Positions 21,850 to 29,452 of a DNA stretch of 64,000 nucleotides are shown in pieces. The notes beneath the pieces are model-generated. The model had not been told where the DNA came from. It was given only the letters and a program-made list of their open reading frames with translations, and searched no databases. Source of the DNA: Armatimonadota bacterium (GTDB lineage: Bacteria; Vulcanimicrobiota; JACPDS01; JBDRKI01); NCBI GenBank assembly GCA_043814095.1, contig JBDRKI010000054.1, positions 14,666-78,665 on the forward strand, read 5' to 3'. Position numbers and translations under genes: made by a program. Within the stretch, counting starts at the first letter, position 1. The number at the start of each line of letters is the position of its first letter.

Positions 21850-22437
21850 CTACCAATTTTCACATAAAATTTCATAATAATCCCGGGGATGATCGCATGC
21901 GGGGCAGACAAGAGGCGCTTCGGCTCCTTCATATACATACCCGCAGTTACCGCATCTCCATTTTACGGATTGCGTTTTCTTAAACACCGTATTCTTTTCT
22001 ATATTAGCAAGAAAAGCTCTGTATCTTTTCTCGTGCTGTTTTTCCGCGACGGATACGGCTTTAAAAACATCCGCTATTTCCTTAAATCCTTCTTCTTCGG
22101 CGGTTTTCGCGAATTCCGCGTAAAGGGTAGTCCATTCAAGGTTTTCACCGTCCGCGGCTTCTTTTAAATTTTCCGCGGTTCTTCCTATAACGCCAGCGGG
22201 GAATGCGGCGGTAATCTCAACTTCACCGCCTTCTAAAAATTTAAAGAATCTTTTCGCGTGCTCTTTCTCGTTATCGGCTGTTTCGGTAAATATATTGGAA
22301 ATCTGAATATACCCTTCTTTTTTCGCCTGTGAGGCAAAATAAGTGTAGCGGTTCCGGGCCTGGGATTCACCCGAGAAAGCTTTGAGAAGATTCTGTTCTG
22401 TTTTTGTGCCCTTTAATGACTTCACTTTTACCTCCAT
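21850..22437 (-). CDS. rbr: Rubrerythrin
   Basis: [24 protein letters not shown]-terminal CGNCG...CPAC. Confidence 0.95.
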
Positions 22438-22439
22438 TA

Positions 22440-22949
22440 TTATGCTCCTGCGGAAAGATGTATTTTTCTTTTGGCAAGCTCTTTGTCTGTAATAGCAATA
22501 CCGGCGTCTTCTTCGCCGTTTCTGTTTATCATCTCTATAACTTCCGAGGCGGACTCTTCTTCTTCTACCTGCTCTTTAACAAACCAGTCTAAGAATTTTC
22601 TTGTTTCTATGTCCTGTTCCTCATCCGCAAGCTTAACCAGGTCATTTATAAGGCCGGTAACTTTCTGTTCGTGCTTATATACCTCTTCAAACACATTTAA
22701 GGGTGAAGACCACTGCGCCTGGGGAGCGGGAATTTCCATCATTATGGCCCTGTAATCATTTTGCGCAAGATAATCGTAAATTTTCATGGCATGGGTAAGT
22801 TCCTCATAAAACTGCGCGCGCAAAAAATGCGAGAAGCCTTTCAACTTCATTGAATCAAGATACGCGGCCATAGCCAGATAAAGATAAGCCGAATAAAGCT
22901 CCCGGTTAATCTGCTTATTTAAAGCCTGTCCCATTTTTTCTTTTAACAT
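22440..22949 (-). CDS. ftn: Non-heme ferritin
   Basis: [26 protein letters not shown] and [10 protein letters not shown]. Confidence 0.93.
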
Positions 22950-22981
22950 AATAGCCTCCTGTTTTTTTTAAAAAAAATAAT

Positions 22982-23143
22982 TTATTCCTGTTCTGTGAAC
23001 AGATCTTTCGTTGCCCCGCACACGGGACAAACCCAGTCCGCGGGAAGCTCGCTAAAAGGCGTTCCCTCGGGTATATCGCTCTCGGGATCACCCAGTGTAG
23101 GATCATACACGTAACCGCATATGGAACATACATACTTTCCCAT
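22982..23143 (-). CDS. Rubredoxin (53 aa, intact)
   Basis: Hand translation [62 protein letters not shown]. Confidence 0.95.
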
Positions 23144-23146
23144 ATT

Positions 23147-23659
23147 CTATCCCTCCTTATTGATATAGGTTGGCGCCGTTTTCGGGGAAGTTCCCCTTTT
23201 CACTTCATGGTAATAAGCATAAGTCATGGGTTCTTCGCTGTTTAATATTTCGCCTTCTGCTACTTCTGCTAAAAATACGGTATGAGAACCCGCGTCAAAA
23301 CTGTTTACAACCTTTGCTTCTATATATCCTATTACATTGTCTAAAACTATCGGGGAACCCGTACTCCCTATTTTATAATTTACATCTTTGAATTTATCGG
23401 TATCTCTTCCTGACTTGAACCCGAACTGCCCTATTAATTTTAAGGGGGCTTCTTTTGAAAGAACAGACACGGAGAAAACTTTGCTTTCTTTTATATACTC
23501 ATGAGTTAAATTCTGTTTGTTTATGCTTGCGGCTATAGCCTGCGGCTCTGAGGTTATCTGCATAACAGCGTTCGCCGTCTGAGCATTTATTTTACCGTCA
23601 CTTACAGAACCCACAATATACATGCCGTAGCTTATCTTATGCAGAACGCTGGAATCCAT
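23147..23659 (-). CDS. Flavin reductase-like FMN-binding protein (like the N-domain of high-molecular-weight rubredoxin)
   Basis: ISYGMYIV, FGFKSGRDTDKF, GSHTVF and PMTYAYYH; start MDSS at 23659. Confidence 0.88.
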   Translation of the reverse strand: MDSSVLHKISYGMYIVGSVSDGKINAQTANAVMQITSEPQAIAASINKQNLTHEYIKESKVFSVSVLSKEAPLKLIGQFGFKSGRDTDKFKDVNYKIGSTGSPIVLDNVIGYIEAKVVNSFDAGSHTVFLAEVAEGEILNSEEPMTYAYYHEVKRGTSPKTAPTYINKEG

Positions 23660-23663
23660 AAAT

Positions 23664-25214
23664 TTACTCCTTACTCTTAGCTCGGCGCGGGCAAGGTTTG
23701 TCCCCGTCCCCGCACGGATGCCCGCATTCGGTAAAGGTGCTTTCCTCTGACTTATCTGTTTTAATTTCCTTATTTTTATCAAGATAGTTCCTTATCGCAT
23801 TATGCAGGGCGTCAGTGCCCAGGTTGGAGCAGTGCATCTTCTGCGGGGGAAGCCCTCCCAGGGCTTTCGCTATTTCATCTTTTGTTATCTTAAGAGCTTC
23901 TTCTATTGTTTTTCCTATTGCCATCTCCGAAACTATTGAAGAGACGGCAATAGCGGCGCCGCAATTATGCACCGCAAATCCTTTCACAAGATATGTATTT
24001 GGTTCAAAAGCAACCTGAAAATTATATACTTTCCCAAAGTAGGATTTTGTATCAATTTTTTTAACAGGAACTAAAAAATAACTATCCTTTGAATGAACAA
24101 ACCTATGCTTCCTGTCTAATTTAAATGATATTAAAAATTGGTGCGAATCGGATAATTTTCTTCCTTCTATAACACAGTTCTTCTTCCAAATTTCCCTTAT
24201 TGAAGCAAAAATTTTTCCCCTCGCAAGAATTTGCTGCATCTGCATCGCTAAAATTTCGGATGTAGTAGTAACTCTATAAGTCTCGCTGTCCGTGCCCCTT
24301 CTTTTATATTTATCTCCGTCTCCAAGCAAATAAGTTTTAAACATTTCCCATTGTTTTGCAAACGGCAAATAAAGAACATCTCGCGATAATTTTTTGGCTT
24401 TGGCATATTTTCCGCAATGTTCAATTAAAAAATCTGCCAATTTTCTGCTACATACATAGACTTCAGAAACATTGTTTCGTATGCGTTCTTGGGCTTTCTT
24501 TTTTGTACAATAAAATATTAGATTCTTTGTTTCATTTATCAATTTTTTTTCTGTTTTATTAAACGAAAAACATACTACACTATTATTTGCACTCATATAT
24601 CCTTCTGACAAATAATAACCCAAAAGCCGCATTAGTTTTAAATCAAAAGATTTAATATCTTTAGTTTGGATATTATAGCCATAAATCAAATAATCTCCTT
24701 TTTCTACATCCTTTGCCGGAATAAAATCAGGTTTTTGCAATAATAGATTCTTATGTTTTACTCTTAACCATTTACATTTTTTACTGGAATAACGAGCCCC
24801 CTTCACCCATTCTCTTTTAATGCACAATACGGGATGATTTGCAGTTAGAGAAAATGCGTTATAAGGTGAAACAAAAGGCAACATTCTAAGTAACTTGCCT
24901 TTAAATTTGCTTTCATAAGTTTCCGCAACAAATGTAGTTTTTCCCAAAGAATTGATAACTTTGTCGCCCTTTTCTATCTTATTTATCTGCTGCAAGCCGA
25001 CTGGATTTGTTATCACCTTTTCCGATGCCGGAAGACATCCGAAGGTTTTAAATTTCACGTCATCAAGCTTACCGTCTTTTACTTTTATGTAAAATGTCAT
25101 TATATCCCCGCACTGGGGATTCCCTACTTCACCCACGCCGTCCGCGCCGGGTATTTCCCCCACATTTCTGGGGTTCTGGAAATGATCCATAACTTTATCC
25201 GAATAAAAAGACAT
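23664..25214 (-). CDS. iscU: Fe-S cluster scaffold IscU/NifU-N interrupted by an intein
   Basis: Exteins YSDKVMDHFQNPRNVG..GNPQCGD..KFKTFG / CGAAIAVSS..LPPQKMHCSNL give a 158-aa spliced product. Confidence 0.93.
   Translation of the reverse strand: MSFYSDKVMDHFQNPRNVGEIPGADGVGEVGNPQCGDIMTFYIKVKDGKLDDVKFKTFGCLPASEKVITNPVGLQQINKIEKGDKVINSLGKTTFVAETYESKFKGKLLRMLPFVSPYNAFSLTANHPVLCIKREWVKGARYSSKKCKWLRVKHKNLLLQKPDFIPAKDVEKGDYLIYGYNIQTKDIKSFDLKLMRLLGYYLSEGYMSANNSVVCFSFNKTEKKLINETKNLIFYCTKKKAQERIRNNVSEVYVCSRKLADFLIEHCGKYAKAKKLSRDVLYLPFAKQWEMFKTYLLGDGDKYKRRGTDSETYRVTTTSEILAMQMQQILARGKIFASIREIWKKNCVIEGRKLSDSHQFLISFKLDRKHRFVHSKDSYFLVPVKKIDTKSYFGKVYNFQVAFEPNTYLVKGFAVHNCGAAIAVSSIVSEMAIGKTIEEALKITKDEIAKALGGLPPQKMHCSNLGTDALHNAIRNYLDKNKEIKTDKSEESTFTECGHPCGDGDKPCPRRAKSKE
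23964..25037 (-). mobile_element. Intein with LAGLIDADG homing endonuclease (358 aa)
   Basis: Block A CLPASEKV, block B TANHP, block C LLGYYLSEG, block E YLLGDG, block F VYNFQV, block G FAVHN|C. Confidence 0.93.
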
Positions 25215-25217
25215 ATA

Positions 25218-26642
25218 TTAAATCTCCTTCTCGCCTATCGCTTTTTCTTCCTTATTCAGGAAAATCATCTTTACCGGCTTGCCTTTATCGTCATAAACGT
25301 ATTTTATTATTGCCGCGCCCGACGACCTTAACTCTTTAAGTTTTCTGTCAGAACCGAAAAACCTTGCTTCGGTTATATCGCCTTTATCGTCATAAACGCA
25401 TGTCATAACGGCAAAACCCAGATCGGGTCTTTCCTTAAGCGCCTCGTCGGCGCCGAAAAATTCCACCTGCGTTATGTTCCCGTTTTTATCGTATTCCCAC
25501 TTCTGCCGGGCGACCCCGCAGAGAGCGTCTTCTTTTAATTTATCATCAGAGCCGAAATACCTTTCTTCTATTTTATTCCCGGCTTTATCGTACTTTGACC
25601 TTATAACGGCGTAGCCGGTATTTTTGTTTTCCTTCAGCTTTTTATCAACTCCCAAAAATTTCTTTTCTATCTCATTGCCGTCTTTATCGTACAGGGTAGC
25701 AACCACCGCGGCGCCGGTAACCTCGTCTTCTTTTAAGCCGCCTTTTTCATCAAGAGCCGAAACTTCCGTAAGATTGCCGAACTGGTCATATTTGCAAACC
25801 ATGCCGGCGGAACCGTGAATCTTATCAAGCTTGGGCTTCCCGTCAGCGCCGAAATATTTAACTTCCACGACATTGCCGTTAGCATCGTATTTAACCCGCA
25901 TTACTGCAACCCCGTAAACGGTATCTTCTTTTGGTTTGTTATTTTCGTCATAATAACTTGTTTCAATTTTATTACCGTATTTATCATATTTATAGGACTG
26001 TCTGGCAATGCCGATCTGGATATTTTCTTTTAATTTTTTATCCATGCCCAGATATCTTACTTCTTTTATGTTGCCGTCATTATCATAATTATATTCAAGC
26101 TCATATAAGCCGTTCTTGTCTATTATCCTGTTCCCGGAGGGGTCCATCCTTACGGATTTTATCCTGCGCCCGTCTTTATCGGTTATATAAAAATACTGGG
26201 CAACACCGTACCTGTCTTTTATTATTCCGCCGTTTTTGTCATGATTGGCTACAAGAAGCTTATGCTTGACAGGATCCCTTTTTATGGTAAGAAAATACAC
26301 GCCGTCGGAATTATAAACCGGACTGTCGCTTGAATCCAGATATATCCACTTCTCTTCTGCGGGAGAATATTCTATCTTTATACAGGCAGCTCCGAATTTC
26401 AGATCCGGCCTCGGCTTGCCGTTGTGAAAATAGTTAATTTTTACGGGTTTTCCTTCTTCATTAAATGCAATTTCATAACATCCTGTTTTGGAGGCCGTAT
26501 TTTCATCAACCTCATATTTTCCTTTAAGTTCATACTTATCATCTATATACAACTGCCGGTAATGCCCCGAAGAGGCGTAAGCCGTACTTATAAAACACAA
26601 AAAAACCGTTATAATTAATACCGTAAAAAGTATTTTTTTCAT
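25218..26642 (-). CDS. Secreted YD-like repeat protein
   Basis: Sec signal (..STAYA); nine ~33-aa repeats YDxxG(N/D/K)xxExx(Y/F)xGxDxKLKE. Confidence 0.7.
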   Translation of the reverse strand: MKKILFTVLIITVFLCFISTAYASSGHYRQLYIDDKYELKGKYEVDENTASKTGCYEIAFNEEGKPVKINYFHNGKPRPDLKFGAACIKIEYSPAEEKWIYLDSSDSPVYNSDGVYFLTIKRDPVKHKLLVANHDKNGGIIKDRYGVAQYFYITDKDGRRIKSVRMDPSGNRIIDKNGLYELEYNYDNDGNIKEVRYLGMDKKLKENIQIGIARQSYKYDKYGNKIETSYYDENNKPKEDTVYGVAVMRVKYDANGNVVEVKYFGADGKPKLDKIHGSAGMVCKYDQFGNLTEVSALDEKGGLKEDEVTGAAVVATLYDKDGNEIEKKFLGVDKKLKENKNTGYAVIRSKYDKAGNKIEERYFGSDDKLKEDALCGVARQKWEYDKNGNITQVEFFGADEALKERPDLGFAVMTCVYDDKGDITEARFFGSDRKLKELRSSGAAIIKYVYDDKGKPVKMIFLNKEEKAIGEKEI

Positions 26643-26666
26643 AAAATCCTCGCTTCGCGGATTTTG

Positions 26667-26903
26667 CTATATCCCGAGCTCATGGGATATAGCTTCTTTA
26701 TTAAAGCCCACGATCAATTTACCGTCTACATCTATAACGGGCACAGCGCGCTGGTTTGATTTTTCAATCATCTCCCTGGCGGCTTCCCGATCCGAAGAAA
26801 CATCTTTATTTTCAAAATCAATATTGTTCCGGCTTAAAAATTCCTTGGCCATTATACAGTAAGGGCATGTAGGGGTCGTATAAATCTTAACTTTTTTAGA
26901 CAT
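26667..26903 (-). CDS. Glutaredoxin-like protein (NrdH/YruB type)
   Basis: IYTTPTCPYC and VPVIDVDGKLIVGF. Confidence 0.92.
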   Translation of the reverse strand: MSKKVKIYTTPTCPYCIMAKEFLSRNNIDFENKDVSSDREAAREMIEKSNQRAVPVIDVDGKLIVGFNKEAISHELGI

Positions 26904-26925
26904 ATTTACACCTCTGCCTTTATTT

Positions 26926-27339
26926 TTATATCTGGACCTCGCTCATCCATCTGCCGTGAACATTGCAGAACTCAATAACCGTAAATTTTCCGCTTTCAAC
27001 CTTAAGATGGATTGAAAGCTCCGGATTTAAAGCAGCACCCGGTGCCATATGGTATCTTGCCATGAATTTATAATCATGGTAGATATCTATATATACTATA
27101 TAGTGCTTTTCTTCCATAACATGTATAATTTCGCCTATTTTTATCTGAGCATCAGTCTTAAAGTCTATAACCGGTATATGCTTCTTATCTCCTTCGGTTA
27201 AATTATCCGGATCTGCGGGTTTTTTAAAAGCATCCGGGGTCAGAACAAAACTTTCCTTTCTCGCCCCGCATACCGGACACTTTTCGGGCACTTCACCAAA
27301 AACGGCATGACCGCATACCTTGCATACAAAAATATCCAT
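26926..27339 (-). CDS. Superoxide reductase with N-terminal rubredoxin-like domain
   Basis: CKVCG...CPVCG; KHIP, HVMEEKHYI and CNVHG SOR ligands. Confidence 0.85.
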   Translation of the reverse strand: MDIFVCKVCGHAVFGEVPEKCPVCGARKESFVLTPDAFKKPADPDNLTEGDKKHIPVIDFKTDAQIKIGEIIHVMEEKHYIVYIDIYHDYKFMARYHMAPGAALNPELSIHLKVESGKFTVIEFCNVHGRWMSEVQI

Positions 27340-27351
27340 AACAATATCTCC

Positions 27352-27534
27352 TTAGATTATTATCGCAACAACCGGGCATTCCTCTGCTGCCTGCCTGCAG
27401 CAATCTTCAAGCTCCTTAGGAACCGCATCTAAGCGGACCACCGCCCTGTTGCCCTCTATCTCAAACATTTCGGGACATATAGAGACACATGTCCTGCATC
27501 CCACACATTTTATCCAGTCAACCTTTGCGCGCAT
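27352..27534 (-). CDS. Single-cluster ferredoxin
   Basis: CVGCRTCVSICP...AAEECPVVAI. Confidence 0.88.
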   Translation of the reverse strand: MRAKVDWIKCVGCRTCVSICPEMFEIEGNRAVVRLDAVPKELEDCCRQAAEECPVVAIII

Positions 27535-27549
27535 AAAAGTGTCTCCTTC

Positions 27550-27708
27550 CTACATCTTTTCAAACATGTCTTTGCCGACCCCGCACACGGGATAAACCCA
27601 GTCATCGGGGAGACTCTCAAAAGCCGTGCCCGGACTAACTCCGTTATCAGGATCCCCTATCTCAGGGTCATACACATACTGGCATACCGTACATAAATAT
27701 TTGTCCAT
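27550..27708 (-). CDS. Rubredoxin (52 aa) with third Cys ligand replaced by Tyr
   Basis: Hand translation [60 protein letters not shown]. Confidence 0.88.
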
Positions 27709-27728
27709 TTTCCCTCCTGGTATATTTT

Positions 27729-28943
27729 TTATCGTTTTTGCATTTCGTAAGTTTTATTTTTTACATTCTCCGCGAAATTCTTCCCGAATTCATAACATTT
27801 TTCAAGTTCGTTCCGGTCCGGAACATACTGCAGGCCTAATGAGGGCTGTATAATCTCTATTCCGGCAATTTTTAAAAATTCTTCTATTTGCTTCACCGCT
27901 CCCCCTGCCCATCCGTAAGAACCGAATGATGCTCCTATTCTATTTTTTGGCTTAAAGCCCTTTACAAGCTCCAAAAATCCCGCAAGATTAGGGAGCATGT
28001 TGTTATCATGGGTTGACGAACCGGCAATATACCCTCGACTTAAAAGCATATCCTTTATTACTTCCGTCCTGTCGGAAACATTTATATCGTAAAGCTTTAC
28101 GCTTACCCCCGCGGCGGTTATGCCTTCTACTATTTTATCGGCCATCTTCTTTGTGGCGCCCCACATTGTTTCATAAATAACCACGATATTTTCCCGGGGG
28201 TTGTTTTCAGCCCATCCGGCATACGCGTTTATTATCTTTAACGGATCTGCTCTCCATATAATGCCATGGCTCGGGGCAATCATCTTTATAGGGATGTTTA
28301 ATTTCTTAATCTCCTCTATTTTCCTTAAAACAAGACCGCTGAAAGGCCATAAAATATTAGCGTAATACTTTACCGCTTCCTCCATTAATGCGCCCTGGTC
28401 AACCTCATTATCAAATCTTCCGGATGAAGCATAATGCTGGCCGAACGCGTCATTGGGAAAGAGTATCTGGTCTTCGGCAATGTATGTAAACATGCTGTCA
28501 GGCCAGTGAAGCATTGGGGCTTCAATAAAGGTAAGGTTTCTTTTTCCTAAATTTAACTTATCTGCGGATTTTACGATATTAAAATCCCAGTCTTTAAAAT
28601 AATGTTTATACAGGCCTTCTTTGCATTTCGCCGTGCAGAAAATTTTCGCGCCGGGACAGTGCTCCATAATATGGGGGAGCGCTCCCGAGTGATCGTCTTC
28701 AACATGGTTCGCGACAACATAATCTATTTTTGAAGGGTCAACCACCTGCCTTATACTATCAATGAGCTTTTCTTTAAAACCCGCGTGCACGCCGTCTATC
28801 AATGTAATTTTTTCATCCATAATTAAATATGAATTATATGTAGTGCCCCTTCTTGTAGTATAGGTATGTCCGTGAAAGTTCCTTATATTCCAGTCAACAG
28901 CCCCTACCCAGTAAACATTTTCCGCTATTTTTACAGCTGACAT
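27729..28943 (-). CDS. fprA: Flavodiiron protein (FprA/ROO; O2 or NO reductase)
   Basis: [30 protein letters not shown] and FGSYGW. Confidence 0.95.
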
Positions 28944-28973: not shown

Positions 28974-29372
28974 TTATAAACATTTTTTGCATATGCCTTT
29001 GAAGTAGCCGTGAATCTCTTCTATTTTATTTCCTTCTATCGCCTTCTTCTTAATATGGGGACACGGTATATCTATATCTATTATCTTTCCGCACTTTTTA
29101 CATAAAAAATGATGGTGGGTTAATGTATCAGGATCGTACCTTGCCTCATCGGCGGTTATAGTCAATTCATTTATAATATTATTTTCAGCAAATGTATTAA
29201 GAGTATTGTAGATAGTGGTTTTTGAAATACCCGGTATCTGTTTTAATATATCATTATATATTCTGTCTGCCGTAGGGTGATCTTTTCTTCCCGTAATGTT
29301 CTTAAGGATAATACACCTCTGGTAGGAATAACTTATCCCTTTTGATTCCATAAGCTCTTTTAGGTCTTTCAC
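28974..29372 (-). CDS. perR: Fur-family regulator, PerR-like
   Basis: DHPTAD, TIYNTL, HHHFLCKKCGKIIDI and C-terminal CKKC; heads the oxidative-stress gene run. Confidence 0.8.
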   Translation of the reverse strand: MKDLKELMESKGISYSYQRCIILKNITGRKDHPTADRIYNDILKQIPGISKTTIYNTLNTFAENNIINELTITADEARYDPDTLTHHHFLCKKCGKIIDIDIPCPHIKKKAIEGNKIEEIHGYFKGICKKCL

Positions 29373-29388: not shown

Positions 29389-29452
29389 TTGCAATGATTG
29401 CAATATTGTAACGATTACAAATTTATTATACCTACACATCTAGTTTTGTCAA
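29389..29452 (-). promoter_or_regulatory. Consensus sigma70 promoter followed by two 7-1-7 inverted-repeat operators (Fur/PerR-type)
   Basis: TTGACA (29452-29447)-N16-TATAAT (29430-29425); TTGCAAT-G-ATTGCAA at 29389-29403 and TTGTAAC-G-ATTACAA at 29406-29420. Confidence 0.8.

What the first reader, a model, noticed from the sequence alone, without database searches (positions are those of the whole stretch)
23664..25214. Homing-endonuclease intein splits IscU at an Fe-S-ligating cysteine inside a PerR-led oxidative-stress gene run
Seen: a 358-aa intein (25037-23964; Cys1, TxxH, LAGLIDADG-type blocks, terminal HN) sits in KFKTFG|CGAAIAVSS. The +1 splicing nucleophile is therefore the second conserved IscU Cys. 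The gene lies in a co-oriented run of ROS-defence genes behind a Fur-family gene with tandem operators. Established: that Cys ligates the cluster in IscU, most bacterial inteins sit in replication/repair proteins, and the Mycobacterium tuberculosis SufB intein is a precedent for redox-sensitive splicing of an Fe-S scaffold. Inference: scaffold maturation may be gated twice, by induction under peroxide and by splicing that proceeds only when Cys1 and Cys+1 are reduced. I cannot tell offline whether this insertion site is already catalogued.
Basis: partly seen in the sequence, partly recalled or inferred. Interest (0 to 1): 0.8.

Follow-up and report, generated by a model that had tools for sequence, protein, structure and literature searches.

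The report
Mobile intein splitting the only IscU scaffold
The only iron-sulfur scaffold gene (iscU/nifU) of this uncultured bacterium is interrupted, just before a cluster-binding cysteine, by a genuine self-splicing, self-spreading intein that recurs in many uncultured bacteria and archaea, and nothing yet shows that it acts as a redox switch.

Summary
Observation confirmed. ORF 25214-23664(-) encodes a 516-aa NifU_N/IscU protein. A 358-aa class-1 intein (25037-23964) with an intact LAGLIDADG endonuclease splits it at FG|C, and the +1 Cys is the second cluster ligand.

It is not unique. At least 177 protein clusters carry this intein in IscU, and all 121 aligned proteins share the site. A junction DNA pattern found 21 species genomes across Bacteria and Archaea. 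The scan has met IscU inteins in at least five other genomes. I found no paper describing one.

Points added here:
- This is the genome's only NifU_N gene, and no SufBD was found, so splicing is obligatory.
- The same-order relative has an empty site, and 0 of 60 phylum relatives hold the intein.
- Intein GC is 32% against 47% in the exteins.
- Its nearest non-IscU relatives are SufB inteins at EG|C.

The Fur-family-led oxidative-stress run, with a consensus promoter and tandem operators, is real. It accompanies the intein in only 1 of 21 other loci. Redox gating remains untested speculation.

The parts
23664..25214 (-). iscU/nifU precursor gene, 516 aa plus stop (NifU_N scaffold split by an intein)
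   Evidence: Open frame. PF01592 at 152.7 bits in two stretches. TIGR03419 NifU_clost at 185.6 bits against a cut-off of 187.9.
25038..25214 (-). N-extein, residues 1-59, with ligand Cys35 and Asp37 (CGD at 25104-25112), ending KFKTFG
   Evidence: Aligns to 4eb5_C residues 2-60. C35, G36 and D37 are invariant in 61 sequences. Coordinates.
23964..25037 (-). 358-aa class-1 intein with LAGLIDADG homing endonuclease (CLPASE...GFAVHN)
   Evidence: Foldseek top hits are endonuclease-bearing inteins: TliVMA 7qsu at E 1.2e-19, then PI-SceI, PI-PfuI and PI-PkoII. GC is 32.2% against 46.8% in the exteins.
24834..24845 (-). Intein block B, TANH (T124, H127)
   Evidence: Invariant in 61 of 61 sequences. 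Coordinates.
24600..24626 (-). LAGLIDADG motif 1, LLGYYLSEG (acidic residue E204)
   Evidence: G199, Y201 and G205 are invariant and E204 is at least 90% conserved..
24315..24341 (-). LAGLIDADG motif 2, FKTYLLGDG (acidic residue D299)
   Evidence: G298, D299 and G300 are at least 90% conserved..
23664..23963 (-). C-extein, residues 418-516 plus stop. It starts with Cys+1 (the second cluster ligand, CGAAIAVSS), contains H461 and C462, and ends in a non-conserved Cys-rich tail
   Evidence: Aligns to 4eb5_C residues 58-126. C418, H461 and C462 are invariant. The tail has pLDDT below 50.
29425..29452 (-). Consensus sigma-70-type promoter (TTGACA, 16 nt, TATAAT) of the gene run
   Evidence: 12 of 12 matches. 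Sequence read.
29389..29420 (-). Two tandem 15-bp 7-1-7 palindromes (TTGTAATCGTTACAA and TTGCAATCATTGCAA), Fur-family operator-like
   Evidence: These are the only zero-mismatch matches in the 2.5-Mb genome.
28974..29372 (-). Fur-family regulator gene (PerR-like, below the curated cut-offs)
   Evidence: PF01475 at 85.3 bits. The best NCBIfam models are PerR: 93.8 bits against a cut-off of 180.
21850..28943 (-). Tightly packed co-oriented run: flavodiiron protein, rubredoxin, ferredoxin, desulfoferrodoxin-like, glutaredoxin, YD/RHS-repeat protein, iscU, flavin reductase, rubredoxin, ferritin, rubrerythrin
   Evidence: ORFs and gaps. Pfam assignments.

Best explanation
This is a genuine, splicing-competent class-1 intein carrying an intact LAGLIDADG homing endonuclease. 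It sits immediately before the second cluster-ligand cysteine of the genome's only U-type Fe-S scaffold.

Inferred from the chemistry of class-1 inteins: Cys60 makes the N-S acyl shift, Cys418 (+1) takes over the N-extein by trans-thioesterification, Asn417 cyclises, and an S-N shift leaves a 158-aa IscU in which Cys418 becomes a cluster ligand. The freed 358-aa endonuclease cuts intein-less iscU alleles at the FG|CGAA coding site, and repair copies the intein in (homing).

Shown here: the element belongs to one intein lineage that occupies this IscU site in many uncultured Bacteria and Archaea. It is patchy among relatives and compositionally foreign, and its nearest relatives outside IscU are SufB inteins.

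It persists because only precise loss is tolerated at a ligand cysteine and because the endonuclease can reinvade. Its position in an oxidative-stress operon is a feature of this genome, not of the intein. No regulatory role is shown.
For: - Anatomy. All catalytic residues are present, and C60, T124, H127, H416, N417 and C418 are invariant in 61 of 61 sequences.
- Fold: the AF2 model has pLDDT 86.4 and pTM 0.79. Its best PDB matches are endonuclease-bearing inteins (7qsu E 1.2e-19, PI-SceI, PI-PfuI, PI-PkoII) and I-DmoI, and the two exteins together match IscU 4eb5_C with TM 0.86.
- Same site everywhere: 121 of 121 aligned proteins have G|C and HN|C.
- Spread: 177 clusters reach E<=1e-90 on the intein alone, and all 120 listed carry PF01592 plus PF14528. 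The junction pattern found 21 species genomes: Omnitrophota, Planctomycetia, Clostridia, Caldiserica, Aerophobetes, Patescibacteria, Thermoplasmatales, Methanobacteriota, Nanoarchaeota and Aenigmatarchaeota.
- Mobility: 0 of 60 same-phylum relatives have the intein. The same-order genome G001 has the uninterrupted site EVKFKTFGCGAAIAVS. Intein GC is 32.2% (GC3 27%) against 46.8% in the exteins (GC3 49%), and only 2% of equal-sized windows are as low.
- Obligatory splicing: there is one NifU_N gene and no SUFBD_core in a 98.97%-complete genome, and a NifS above its curated cut-off lies elsewhere.
- Relatives: the top non-IscU hits are SufB inteins at 30-40% identity over about 350 aa. In a quick tree the IscU inteins form one group (SH-aLRT 94), which joins 10 SufB inteins in a clade with support 97.
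- Context is not linked to the intein: ROS genes lie near iscU in 1 of 21 other loci and nifS in 11 of 21.
Against: - No experiment shows splicing or endonuclease activity here. Pfam's Intein_splicing model scores below its cut-off (19.4 against 35.8).
- Several facts would fit a co-opted, conditional intein equally well. It is the only scaffold. It sits in a Fur-family or PerR-like oxidative-stress operon. Its relatives include the SufB intein type, for which redox-sensitive splicing is published. Two non-catalytic cysteines (C147, C255) are at least 90% conserved in the IscU clade but are absent from the 10 SufB inteins aligned, though the one PFOR-beta intein also has Cys at the C255 column, and I cannot explain them.
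- The tree is a quick search with SH-aLRT only, because the careful search did not finish. Its rows were chosen as best hits to the query, so 'sister to SufB' partly reflects the sampling.
- The junction-pattern count of 21 is a lower bound from a strict pattern.
Confidence: 0.8

Rival explanations
1. Conditional protein splicing. The intein has been co-opted as a post-translational gate. Oxidants, nitrosative agents or thiophilic metals modify Cys1 and Cys+1, or the clade-specific Cys147 and Cys255, and stall splicing. The operon induced under stress would then build a pool of inert precursor, which matures into scaffold only when the cytoplasm is reducing again.
For: - Cys1 and Cys+1 are both cysteines and are invariant.
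- Its closest non-IscU relatives are SufB inteins. Published work reports ROS- and RNS-sensitive splicing for the M. tuberculosis SufB intein (statement read in PMC6195587; architecture in PMC8891592).
- The gene lies behind a PerR-like regulator among ROS-defence genes.
- It is the only scaffold gene.
- C147 and C255 are conserved only in the IscU clade.
Against: - Nothing in the sequence can show redox dependence. Any class-1 intein with Cys1 and Cys+1 can be oxidised in vitro.
- The ROS context accompanies the intein in only 1 of 21 other loci, and the usual neighbour is nifS.
- The patchy distribution, the empty site in the same-order relative and the foreign composition fit a selfish element without any added function.
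- The conserved endonuclease motifs indicate selection for mobility.
Confidence: 0.15
2. A dead or non-splicing insertion. On this view iscU is inactivated in this genome and Fe-S assembly runs by another route.
For: Pfam Intein_splicing scores below its cut-off. iscU is unlinked from nifS here, unlike 11 of 21 other loci.
Against: - The frame is open for 516 aa, and every catalytic residue of intein and scaffold is intact and conserved.
- No other NifU_N gene and no SufBD were found in a 98.97%-complete genome.
- The exteins are 69-74% identical to the intein-less G001 orthologue.
- An RNA library holds contigs at least 99% identical to parts of the gene, including the intein. This is a weak hint only, because they are contigs without strand information.
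Confidence: 0.03
3. An assembly chimera, in which the intein DNA was joined to iscU by mis-assembly of a metagenome.
For: The intein's GC is 14 points below that of the exteins, and the genome is a 129-contig assembly.
Against: - The same in-frame architecture, with the same junction residues, occurs in 120 other proteins from several sources and in 21 named genome assemblies.
- A 151-nt contig of DNA run X3 (25004-25154, no differences) crosses the N-terminal junction. That run may be related to the source sample, so it is not counted as independent.
Confidence: 0.01

Closest known systems
SufB (Pps1-type) inteins of the SUF Fe-S scaffold, including the published Mycobacterium tuberculosis SufB intein
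   Same: Both are class-1 inteins of about 358-359 aa with Cys1, block-B His, terminal His-Asn, Cys+1 and an intact LAGLIDADG endonuclease, inserted in an Fe-S assembly scaffold directly before a conserved cysteine (PMC8891592 passages). Environmental SufB inteins are the nearest non-IscU relatives of the window's intein, at 30-40% identity and E 4e-67 to 6e-43. They share the CLPxxE start and the YL[VA][KR]GFAVHN end.
   Different: The host protein is unrelated (SufBD core against NifU_N) and the site differs (hY[IVN]EG|C[TS]AP against KFKTFG|CGAAIA). The IscU clade has two conserved extra cysteines (C147, C255) that the 10 SufB inteins aligned lack. I did not compare the M. tuberculosis sequence itself, so its membership of the same clade is inferred from matching architecture and lengths.
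Archaeal and yeast endonuclease-bearing inteins with solved structures (TliVMA/PhoVMA 7qsu/7qst, PI-SceI 1vde, PI-PfuI 1dq3, PI-PkoII 2cw7)
   Same: They share the two-part fold of a HINT splicing domain plus a LAGLIDADG endonuclease. Foldseek gives probability 1.00 and E 1e-19 to 1e-11, and phmmer hits PI-PkoII at E 7.7e-07.
   Different: Sequence identity is only 9-16%. Their hosts are V-ATPase, RNR and DNA polymerase, not an Fe-S scaffold.
Intein-less clostridial/archaeal-type NifU/IscU (TIGR03419; A. fulgidus IscU 4eb5)
   Same: The exteins align end to end with it, and the ligand set is conserved: C35, D37, C418, H461, C462. A NifS partner is present in the genome.
   Different: The window's gene is interrupted by 358 aa at the second ligand Cys and is not adjacent to nifS.

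Membership tests
Class-1 intein (HINT splicing domain) | Nucleophile (Cys/Ser/Thr) at intein position 1 | tested here: met
   Cys60, present in 121 of 121 aligned proteins.
Class-1 intein (HINT splicing domain) | Block B TxxH | tested here: met
   TANH at residues 124-127. T124 and H127 are invariant in 61 of 61.
Class-1 intein (HINT splicing domain) | C-terminal His-Asn followed by a +1 Cys/Ser/Thr | tested here: met
   H416, N417 and C418, each in 121 of 121.
Class-1 intein (HINT splicing domain) | In-frame insertion that is absent from orthologues (empty site exists) | tested here: met
   The same-order genome G001 has a contiguous EVKFKTFGCGAAIAVS. Solved IscU chains align across the gap.
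Class-1 intein (HINT splicing domain) | Match to the curated splicing-domain profile | tested here: not met
   PF14890 scores 19.4 bits against a cut-off of 35.8. Many homologues do carry PF14890 in the precomputed lists.
Class-1 intein (HINT splicing domain) | HINT fold | tested here: met
   An AF2 model with pLDDT 86.4 matches solved inteins at E 1.2e-19 to 1e-11 with probability 1.00.
Class-1 intein (HINT splicing domain) | Protein splicing actually occurs | not testable with these tools
   Needs expression followed by a western blot or mass spectrometry.
LAGLIDADG homing endonuclease | Two LAGLIDADG motifs, each with the acidic residue before the final Gly | tested here: met
   LLGYYLSEG (E204) and FKTYLLGDG (D299), both at least 90% conserved. 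They are also kept in 14 of 15 (E) and 14 of 15 (D) aligned IscU, SufB and other inteins.
LAGLIDADG homing endonuclease | Curated profile above its cut-off, and the fold | tested here: met
   PF14528 scores 40.6 bits against a cut-off of 22.5. Foldseek matches I-DmoI and I-Tsp061I at probability 1.00.
LAGLIDADG homing endonuclease | Cuts the intein-less allele | not testable with these tools
   Needs a cleavage assay on the empty site.
IscU/NifU_N Fe-S scaffold | NifU_N profile above its cut-off | tested here: met
   PF01592 scores 152.7 bits against a cut-off of 22. The equivalog TIGR03419 falls just below its cut-off (185.6 against 187.9), as expected for a split match.
IscU/NifU_N Fe-S scaffold | Three ligand cysteines plus the conserved Asp and His | tested here: met
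   C35, D37, C418, H461 and C462 are invariant in 61 of 61. C35, C418 and C462 fall on 4eb5_C residues 33, 58 and 102 by the alignment offset. That these three are the cluster ligands in that structure is recalled knowledge.
IscU/NifU_N Fe-S scaffold | Cysteine desulfurase partner in the genome | tested here: met
   NifS TIGR03402 scores 561.6 bits against a cut-off of 530.75, on another contig.
PerR (peroxide-sensing Fur-family repressor) | Fur-family domain | tested here: met
   PF01475 at 85.3 bits.
PerR (peroxide-sensing Fur-family repressor) | Curated PerR equivalog score | tested here: not met
   The best models are PerR, but at 93.8, 82.6 and 66.6 bits against cut-offs of 180-200. The Fur models score lower, at 55.8.
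PerR (peroxide-sensing Fur-family repressor) | Peroxide-responsive derepression, and operator binding | not testable with these tools
   Only the 7-1-7 palindromes that follow the promoter, within 5 nt of its -10 hexamer, are seen. They have no zero-mismatch copy elsewhere in the genome.
Conditional (redox-gated) protein splicing | Splicing rate depends on the redox or metal state | not testable with these tools
   Only the prerequisite, Cys1 and Cys+1, is present.

The most novel reading that the evidence does not exclude
IscU and SufB inteins form one lineage that specialises on the sulfur- and cluster-handling cysteines of the two unrelated Fe-S scaffolds. The IscU branch, with its own conserved cysteine pair C147/C255, would be a thiol- or metal-sensitive latch. 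In anaerobes whose only scaffold carries it, scaffold would be released from a stress-induced precursor pool only once the cytoplasm is reducing again. Protein splicing would then be a physiological checkpoint of Fe-S biogenesis.
Probability: 0.15. Interest if true: 0.7.

Novelty: new member of a known kind. Interest (0 to 1): 0.4.

Why it matters
Inteins are mostly known from replication and repair proteins (abstract of PMC4760082, seen in the listing). The one well-studied intein in Fe-S assembly is the mycobacterial SufB intein.

An intein lineage at a ligand cysteine of IscU has three consequences:
- It extends the catalogue of intein host sites. It is widespread in uncultured Bacteria and Archaea, and I found no description in print.
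- It gives a natural case in which the cell's whole Fe-S supply depends on protein splicing, because this genome has one scaffold gene and no SUF.
- It offers, in harmless environmental organisms, a relative of the SufB intein on which conditional splicing can be tested.

The IscU-SufB intein relationship also raises a testable question: how does a homing endonuclease jump between two unrelated genes that share only a G|C-x-A site?

For genome annotation, these 480-650-aa 'NifU-like' proteins should be read as intein-bearing IscU.

Tried and rejected
- The search for related loci with the whole protein mostly returned intein-less IscU. The 80 loci kept included only 6 full intein-bearing genes (L001-3, L007, L024, L028; Methanomassiliicoccales type, 29-31% identity) and one partial (L040). 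I replaced it with a junction DNA pattern.
- A genome-wide search for the operator pattern, to define a regulon and so tell PerR from Fur, gave zero-mismatch matches only at the window's own two boxes. One-mismatch matches (20, against 9 for the reversed control) were not clearly enriched. No regulon could be defined.
- The careful maximum-likelihood tree did not finish in two 300-s runs, so only the quick tree is reported.
- RNA evidence: metatranscriptome run X1 holds five short contigs at least 99% identical to parts of the flavin reductase gene, the iscU C-extein, the intein interior, the YD-repeat gene and the grx gene. These are contigs without strand or depth meaning, and DNA carry-over is possible, so they do not show an operon transcript. 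Parts without cover mean nothing.
- The habitat label (groundwater) rests on small shares (0.09-0.10 of the words) that I then laid. I do not build on it.
I read the operators directly instead.
- The Topilina 2015 paper on the SufB intein is not held. I relied on statements about it in PMC6195587 and PMC8891592.
- InBase could not be consulted. File 1 of the PMC4760082 supplements was not searchable and might list host genes that I could not see.
Full report
**1.

The minus-strand frame 25214-23664 is open for 516 codons. Pfam finds the NifU_N scaffold domain in two separated pieces (152.7 bits against a cut-off of 22) with a LAGLIDADG_3 domain between them (40.6 bits against 22.5). The Intein_splicing profile scores only 19.4 bits, below its cut-off of 35.8. 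NCBIfam's clostridial-type NifU equivalog scores 185.6 against a cut-off of 187.9, again as two stretches.

Against solved structures, A. fulgidus IscU (4eb5_C) aligns to residues 4-62 and 418-488 with chain residue 58 on query Cys418. The only intein hit by sequence is PI-PkoII, at E 7.7e-07.

The insert is therefore residues 60-417, which is 358 aa at window 25037-23964. It begins CLPASE and ends GFAVHN, and the exteins read KFKTFG | CGAAIAVSS. By the alignment offset, C35, C418 and C462 fall on chain residues 33, 58 and 102. That these are the cluster ligands in that structure is my recollection, not a call.

**2. It folds as an endonuclease-bearing intein**

An AlphaFold2 model built on 61 homologues has mean pLDDT 86.4 and pTM 0.79. 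Only the C-terminal tail (residues 485-516) falls below 50.

Foldseek against the PDB ranks endonuclease-bearing inteins first:
- TliVMA 7qsu at E 1.2e-19
- PI-SceI, PhoVMA, PI-PfuI and PI-PkoII down to E 1e-11
- free-standing LAGLIDADG enzymes (I-DmoI, I-Tsp061I) for the central domain

The two exteins together superpose on IscU 4eb5_C with TM 0.86 normalised by the target and rmsd 2.0.

In the 61-sequence alignment C60, T124, H127, H416, N417 and C418 are invariant. The acidic residues of both LAGLIDADG motifs (E204 in LLGYYLSEG, D299 in FKTYLLGDG) are at least 90% conserved. Both the splicing chemistry and the endonuclease therefore look intact and under selection. That it splices and cuts is inference.

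**3. It is one member of a widespread allele**

A search of 5.8 billion clustered proteins with the whole precursor returned 1311 hits at E<=0.001 among 8000 scored candidates. All 120 listed (474-649 aa, 51-70% identity) carry PF01592 plus PF14528. In a MAFFT alignment of these 120 plus the query, all 121 have Gly-Cys at the N-terminal junction and His-Asn-Cys at the C-terminal one.

Scoring the intein part alone gave 177 clusters at E<=1e-90 among 2175 candidates, and again all 120 listed are NifU_N proteins. This is a lower bound, because the search depends on shared words.

A degenerate DNA pattern across the intein/C-extein junction found 21 of the species genomes in genome contigs:
- nine titled Omnitrophica or Omnitrophota
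- three Planctomycetia
- two 'uncultured bacterium'
- one each of Clostridia, Caldiserica, Aerophobetes, Patescibacteria, Thermoplasmatales, Methanobacteriota, Nanoarchaeota and Aenigmatarchaeota

Six Methanomassiliicoccales-type loci carry a more distant version, at 29-31% identity.

The scan's own notes list IscU inteins in at least five other genomes, at this cysteine or at the first ligand cysteine, each with 'no paper found'.

My own full-text searches found no description of an intein in IscU or NifU:
- intein + IscU
- intein + NifU
- intein + Fe-S cluster + scaffold + insertion site
- inteins + iron-sulfur cluster assembly + metagenom*
- intein-containing / Omnitrophota / candidate phyla

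The main text of the large intein survey PMC4760082 mentions neither NifU nor IscU, and neither does its supplement file 2.

**4. It behaves as a mobile element in this genome**

With the intein as query, 0 of 60 relatives (one same-order genome, the rest same-phylum) have a match. By contrast, 19 of 21 genomes (the window's own plus 20 relatives) have a NifU_N gene.

The single same-order genome, G001 (75% complete), has an uninterrupted iscU whose site reads EVKFKTFGCGAAIAVS, identical in protein to the window's joined flanks except for the first residue.

The intein is compositionally foreign. Its GC is 32.2% (GC3 27.1%), against 46.8% (GC3 49.1%) in the exteins and 40.1% in the window. Only 2% of 1074-bp windows are as low.

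**5. The cell depends on it**

The genome (2.5 Mb, 129 contigs, 98.97% complete) has only this one NifU_N gene. No SUFBD_core match was found, although the control search rang in 14 of 14 reference genomes. One NifS above its curated cut-off (561.6 against 530.75) lies on another contig beside unrelated genes.

So, as far as family searches can see, every Fe-S cluster of this organism must pass through a scaffold that exists only after splicing. This argues strongly against a dead insertion. It also means that expression cannot be confined to peroxide stress.

**6. Relatives of the intein**

The intein alone was searched against 1.84 billion representatives. It gave 3368 hits at E<=0.001, 1029 at E<=1e-10 and 32 at E<=1e-30.

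After the IscU representatives, the best full-length matches are almost all SufB proteins by Pfam. P0125-128, P0130-133, P0135 and P0136 score E 4e-67 to 6e-43, and P0153 (also SufB) scores E 1e-29. One pyruvate:ferredoxin-oxidoreductase-beta-like protein (P0129) is the exception among them. Further down come a thioredoxin-reductase-like protein and diverse other hosts.

The junctions read as follows:
- SufB: hY[IVN]EG|C[TS]AP
- PFOR-beta-like: GIG|CGS
- TrxR-like: CAT|CDAP

All share the CLPxxE start and the YL[VA][KR]GF.VHN end. Pairwise identity to the window's intein is 30-40% over 337-355 aligned residues.

I built a quick IQ-TREE of 52 intein segments: every fifth of 117 IscU inteins, which gave 24 rows, plus 28 others chosen from the hit list. 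The careful search did not finish.
- The 24 IscU inteins form one group (SH-aLRT 94).
- Ten of the 11 SufB inteins form another (97).
- Both, together with the PFOR-beta intein and two divergent IscU inteins, form a clade (97).

Because the rows were picked as best hits to the query and the root is only the midpoint, I read this as 'one origin at the IscU site, nearest kin in SufB'. It does not give a direction.

The published M. tuberculosis SufB precursor has a 252-aa N-extein, a 359-aa intein with Cys1, block-B His67, His-Asn and Cys+1, and an intact endonuclease (PMC8891592 passages). This is the same architecture as the 808-837-aa environmental SufB proteins found here. I did not compare its sequence.

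**7. The gene run and its regulator**

Pfam confirms the following, in order:
- a Fur-family protein (28974-29372)
- a flavodiiron protein
- rubredoxin
- a single-cluster ferredoxin
- a desulfoferrodoxin-like protein
- glutaredoxin
- a YD/RHS-repeat protein that starts with a signal-peptide-like hydrophobic stretch (my reading of the translation)
- iscU
- a flavin reductase
- rubredoxin
- ferritin
- rubrerythrin

All are on the minus strand with gaps of 2-32 nt. A kinase-like gene and a dCMP deaminase gene follow them.

The only strong promoter-like site is a 12/12 consensus at 29452-29425. Two 7-1-7 palindromes follow it, the first starting 5 nt after its -10 hexamer, and they have no zero-mismatch copy elsewhere in the genome.

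The regulator's best NCBIfam models are PerR types (93.8, 82.6 and 66.6 bits) ahead of Fur (55.8), but all fall far below the cut-offs of 180-220. 'PerR-like' is a fair guess, not a demonstration.

This context does not travel with the intein. In the 21 junction-pattern loci, tblastn with the window's proteins finds fur, FDP and rbr near iscU only in L099 (Planctomycetia). nifS lies in the locus in 11, and in 6 of 6 Methanomassiliicoccales-type loci. Several of these loci are short, so absences are soft. G001 has none of the run's genes in the 8.9 kb downstream of its iscU, and its contig ends upstream.

**8. How it most likely works**

Shown:
- the anatomy and fold of the intein
- conservation of the catalytic residues
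- presence/absence polymorphism and foreign composition
- its status as the sole scaffold gene

Inferred from established intein chemistry: a four-step class-1 splicing reaction with Cys60, Cys418 and Asn417 yields a 158-aa IscU and a free endonuclease, which homes into empty FG|CGAA sites.

The insertion before a ligand cysteine is what one expects of inteins. The +1 nucleophile must be Cys, Ser or Thr. The endonuclease also needs an invariant DNA target, and imprecise loss at such a site is lethal.

**9. The gating idea**

The prerequisites exist: Cys1 and Cys+1, kinship to SufB inteins, and a published report that the M. tuberculosis SufB intein is highly sensitive to ROS and RNS (statement in PMC6195587).

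Two features remain unexplained. Cys147 and Cys255 are at least 90% conserved in the IscU clade. The 10 SufB inteins aligned have other residues at both columns, though the PFOR-beta intein also has Cys at the C255 column.

But nothing computed here speaks to redox dependence, and the operon link is specific to this genome. As proposed, the two gates also oppose each other in time. The most coherent version is a stress-induced precursor pool that is released on recovery. I give it about 15%.

**10. Verdict**

This is a real intein in a host gene and at a site that I could not find in print. It is an ordinary type of element, it is widespread in public data, and this scan has met it repeatedly. 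I class it as a new member of a known kind.

Its value lies in three things: the sole-scaffold dependence on splicing, the kinship between IscU and SufB inteins, and its use as a harmless model for conditional splicing of an Fe-S scaffold.

Noticed in passing
Proteins P0064, P0095, P0097, P0100, P0102, P0106, P0111, P0115. P0111's longest contig has the length of L104's contig (27861).: Some IscU proteins of 624-649 aa carry two inteins. One is a mini-intein of about 150 aa before the first ligand cysteine (GNP[VI]|C...LHN|CGD). The other is the LAGLIDADG intein at FG|C. Two of the three ligand cysteines of IscU are therefore intein sites in nature.
   Followed up: partly
Window 24774-24776 (Cys147) and 24450-24452 (Cys255): Two non-catalytic cysteines inside the intein are at least 90% conserved among 61 IscU inteins. 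The 10 SufB inteins aligned have other residues at both columns, though the one PFOR-beta intein has Cys at the Cys255 column. Their role is unknown, and their distance in the model could not be measured.
   Followed up: partly
P0159 and P0129: Related inteins sit in a thioredoxin-reductase-like protein, between the two cysteines of a CAT|CD motif, and in a pyruvate:ferredoxin-oxidoreductase-beta-like protein at GIG|CGS. Several members of this intein neighbourhood therefore sit at cysteines of redox or Fe-S proteins.
   Followed up: no
G000:C55:58144-58443 (L083) and G000:C36:109174-109740 (L084/L086): The genome holds a second LAGLIDADG intein, in a long protein that reads like a ribonucleotide reductase (TNPC|ITGDS...VVSN|CGEQP). 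That is my reading of the translation, and I ran no family search. There is also a free-standing 240-aa LAGLIDADG ORF.
   Followed up: partly
Window 25218-26642 (-): A 474-aa YD/RHS-repeat protein with an N-terminal hydrophobic stretch that reads like a signal peptide lies between the glutaredoxin gene and iscU, and ends 3 nt before the iscU start. It is an odd passenger in an oxidative-stress run.
   Followed up: no
Window 23667-23762 (-): The IscU C-terminal tail (KTDKSEESTFTECGHPCGDGDKPCPRRAKSKE) holds three extra cysteines. It is not conserved in the homologues and is modelled with pLDDT below 50.
   Followed up: no
G000:C48:72288-73457 (L087:1489-2658): nifS is unlinked from iscU in this genome and lies beside unrelated genes. 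It is in the same locus as the intein-bearing iscU in 11 of 21 junction-pattern loci and in 6 of 6 Methanomassiliicoccales-type loci.
   Followed up: partly
Window 23147-23782 (-): The longest ORF of the flavin-reductase gene overlaps the iscU 3' end by 119 nt. The start at 23659, 4 nt after the iscU stop, gives a 170-aa protein that matches Flavin_Reduct from profile position 2, so it is the more likely start.
   Followed up: partly
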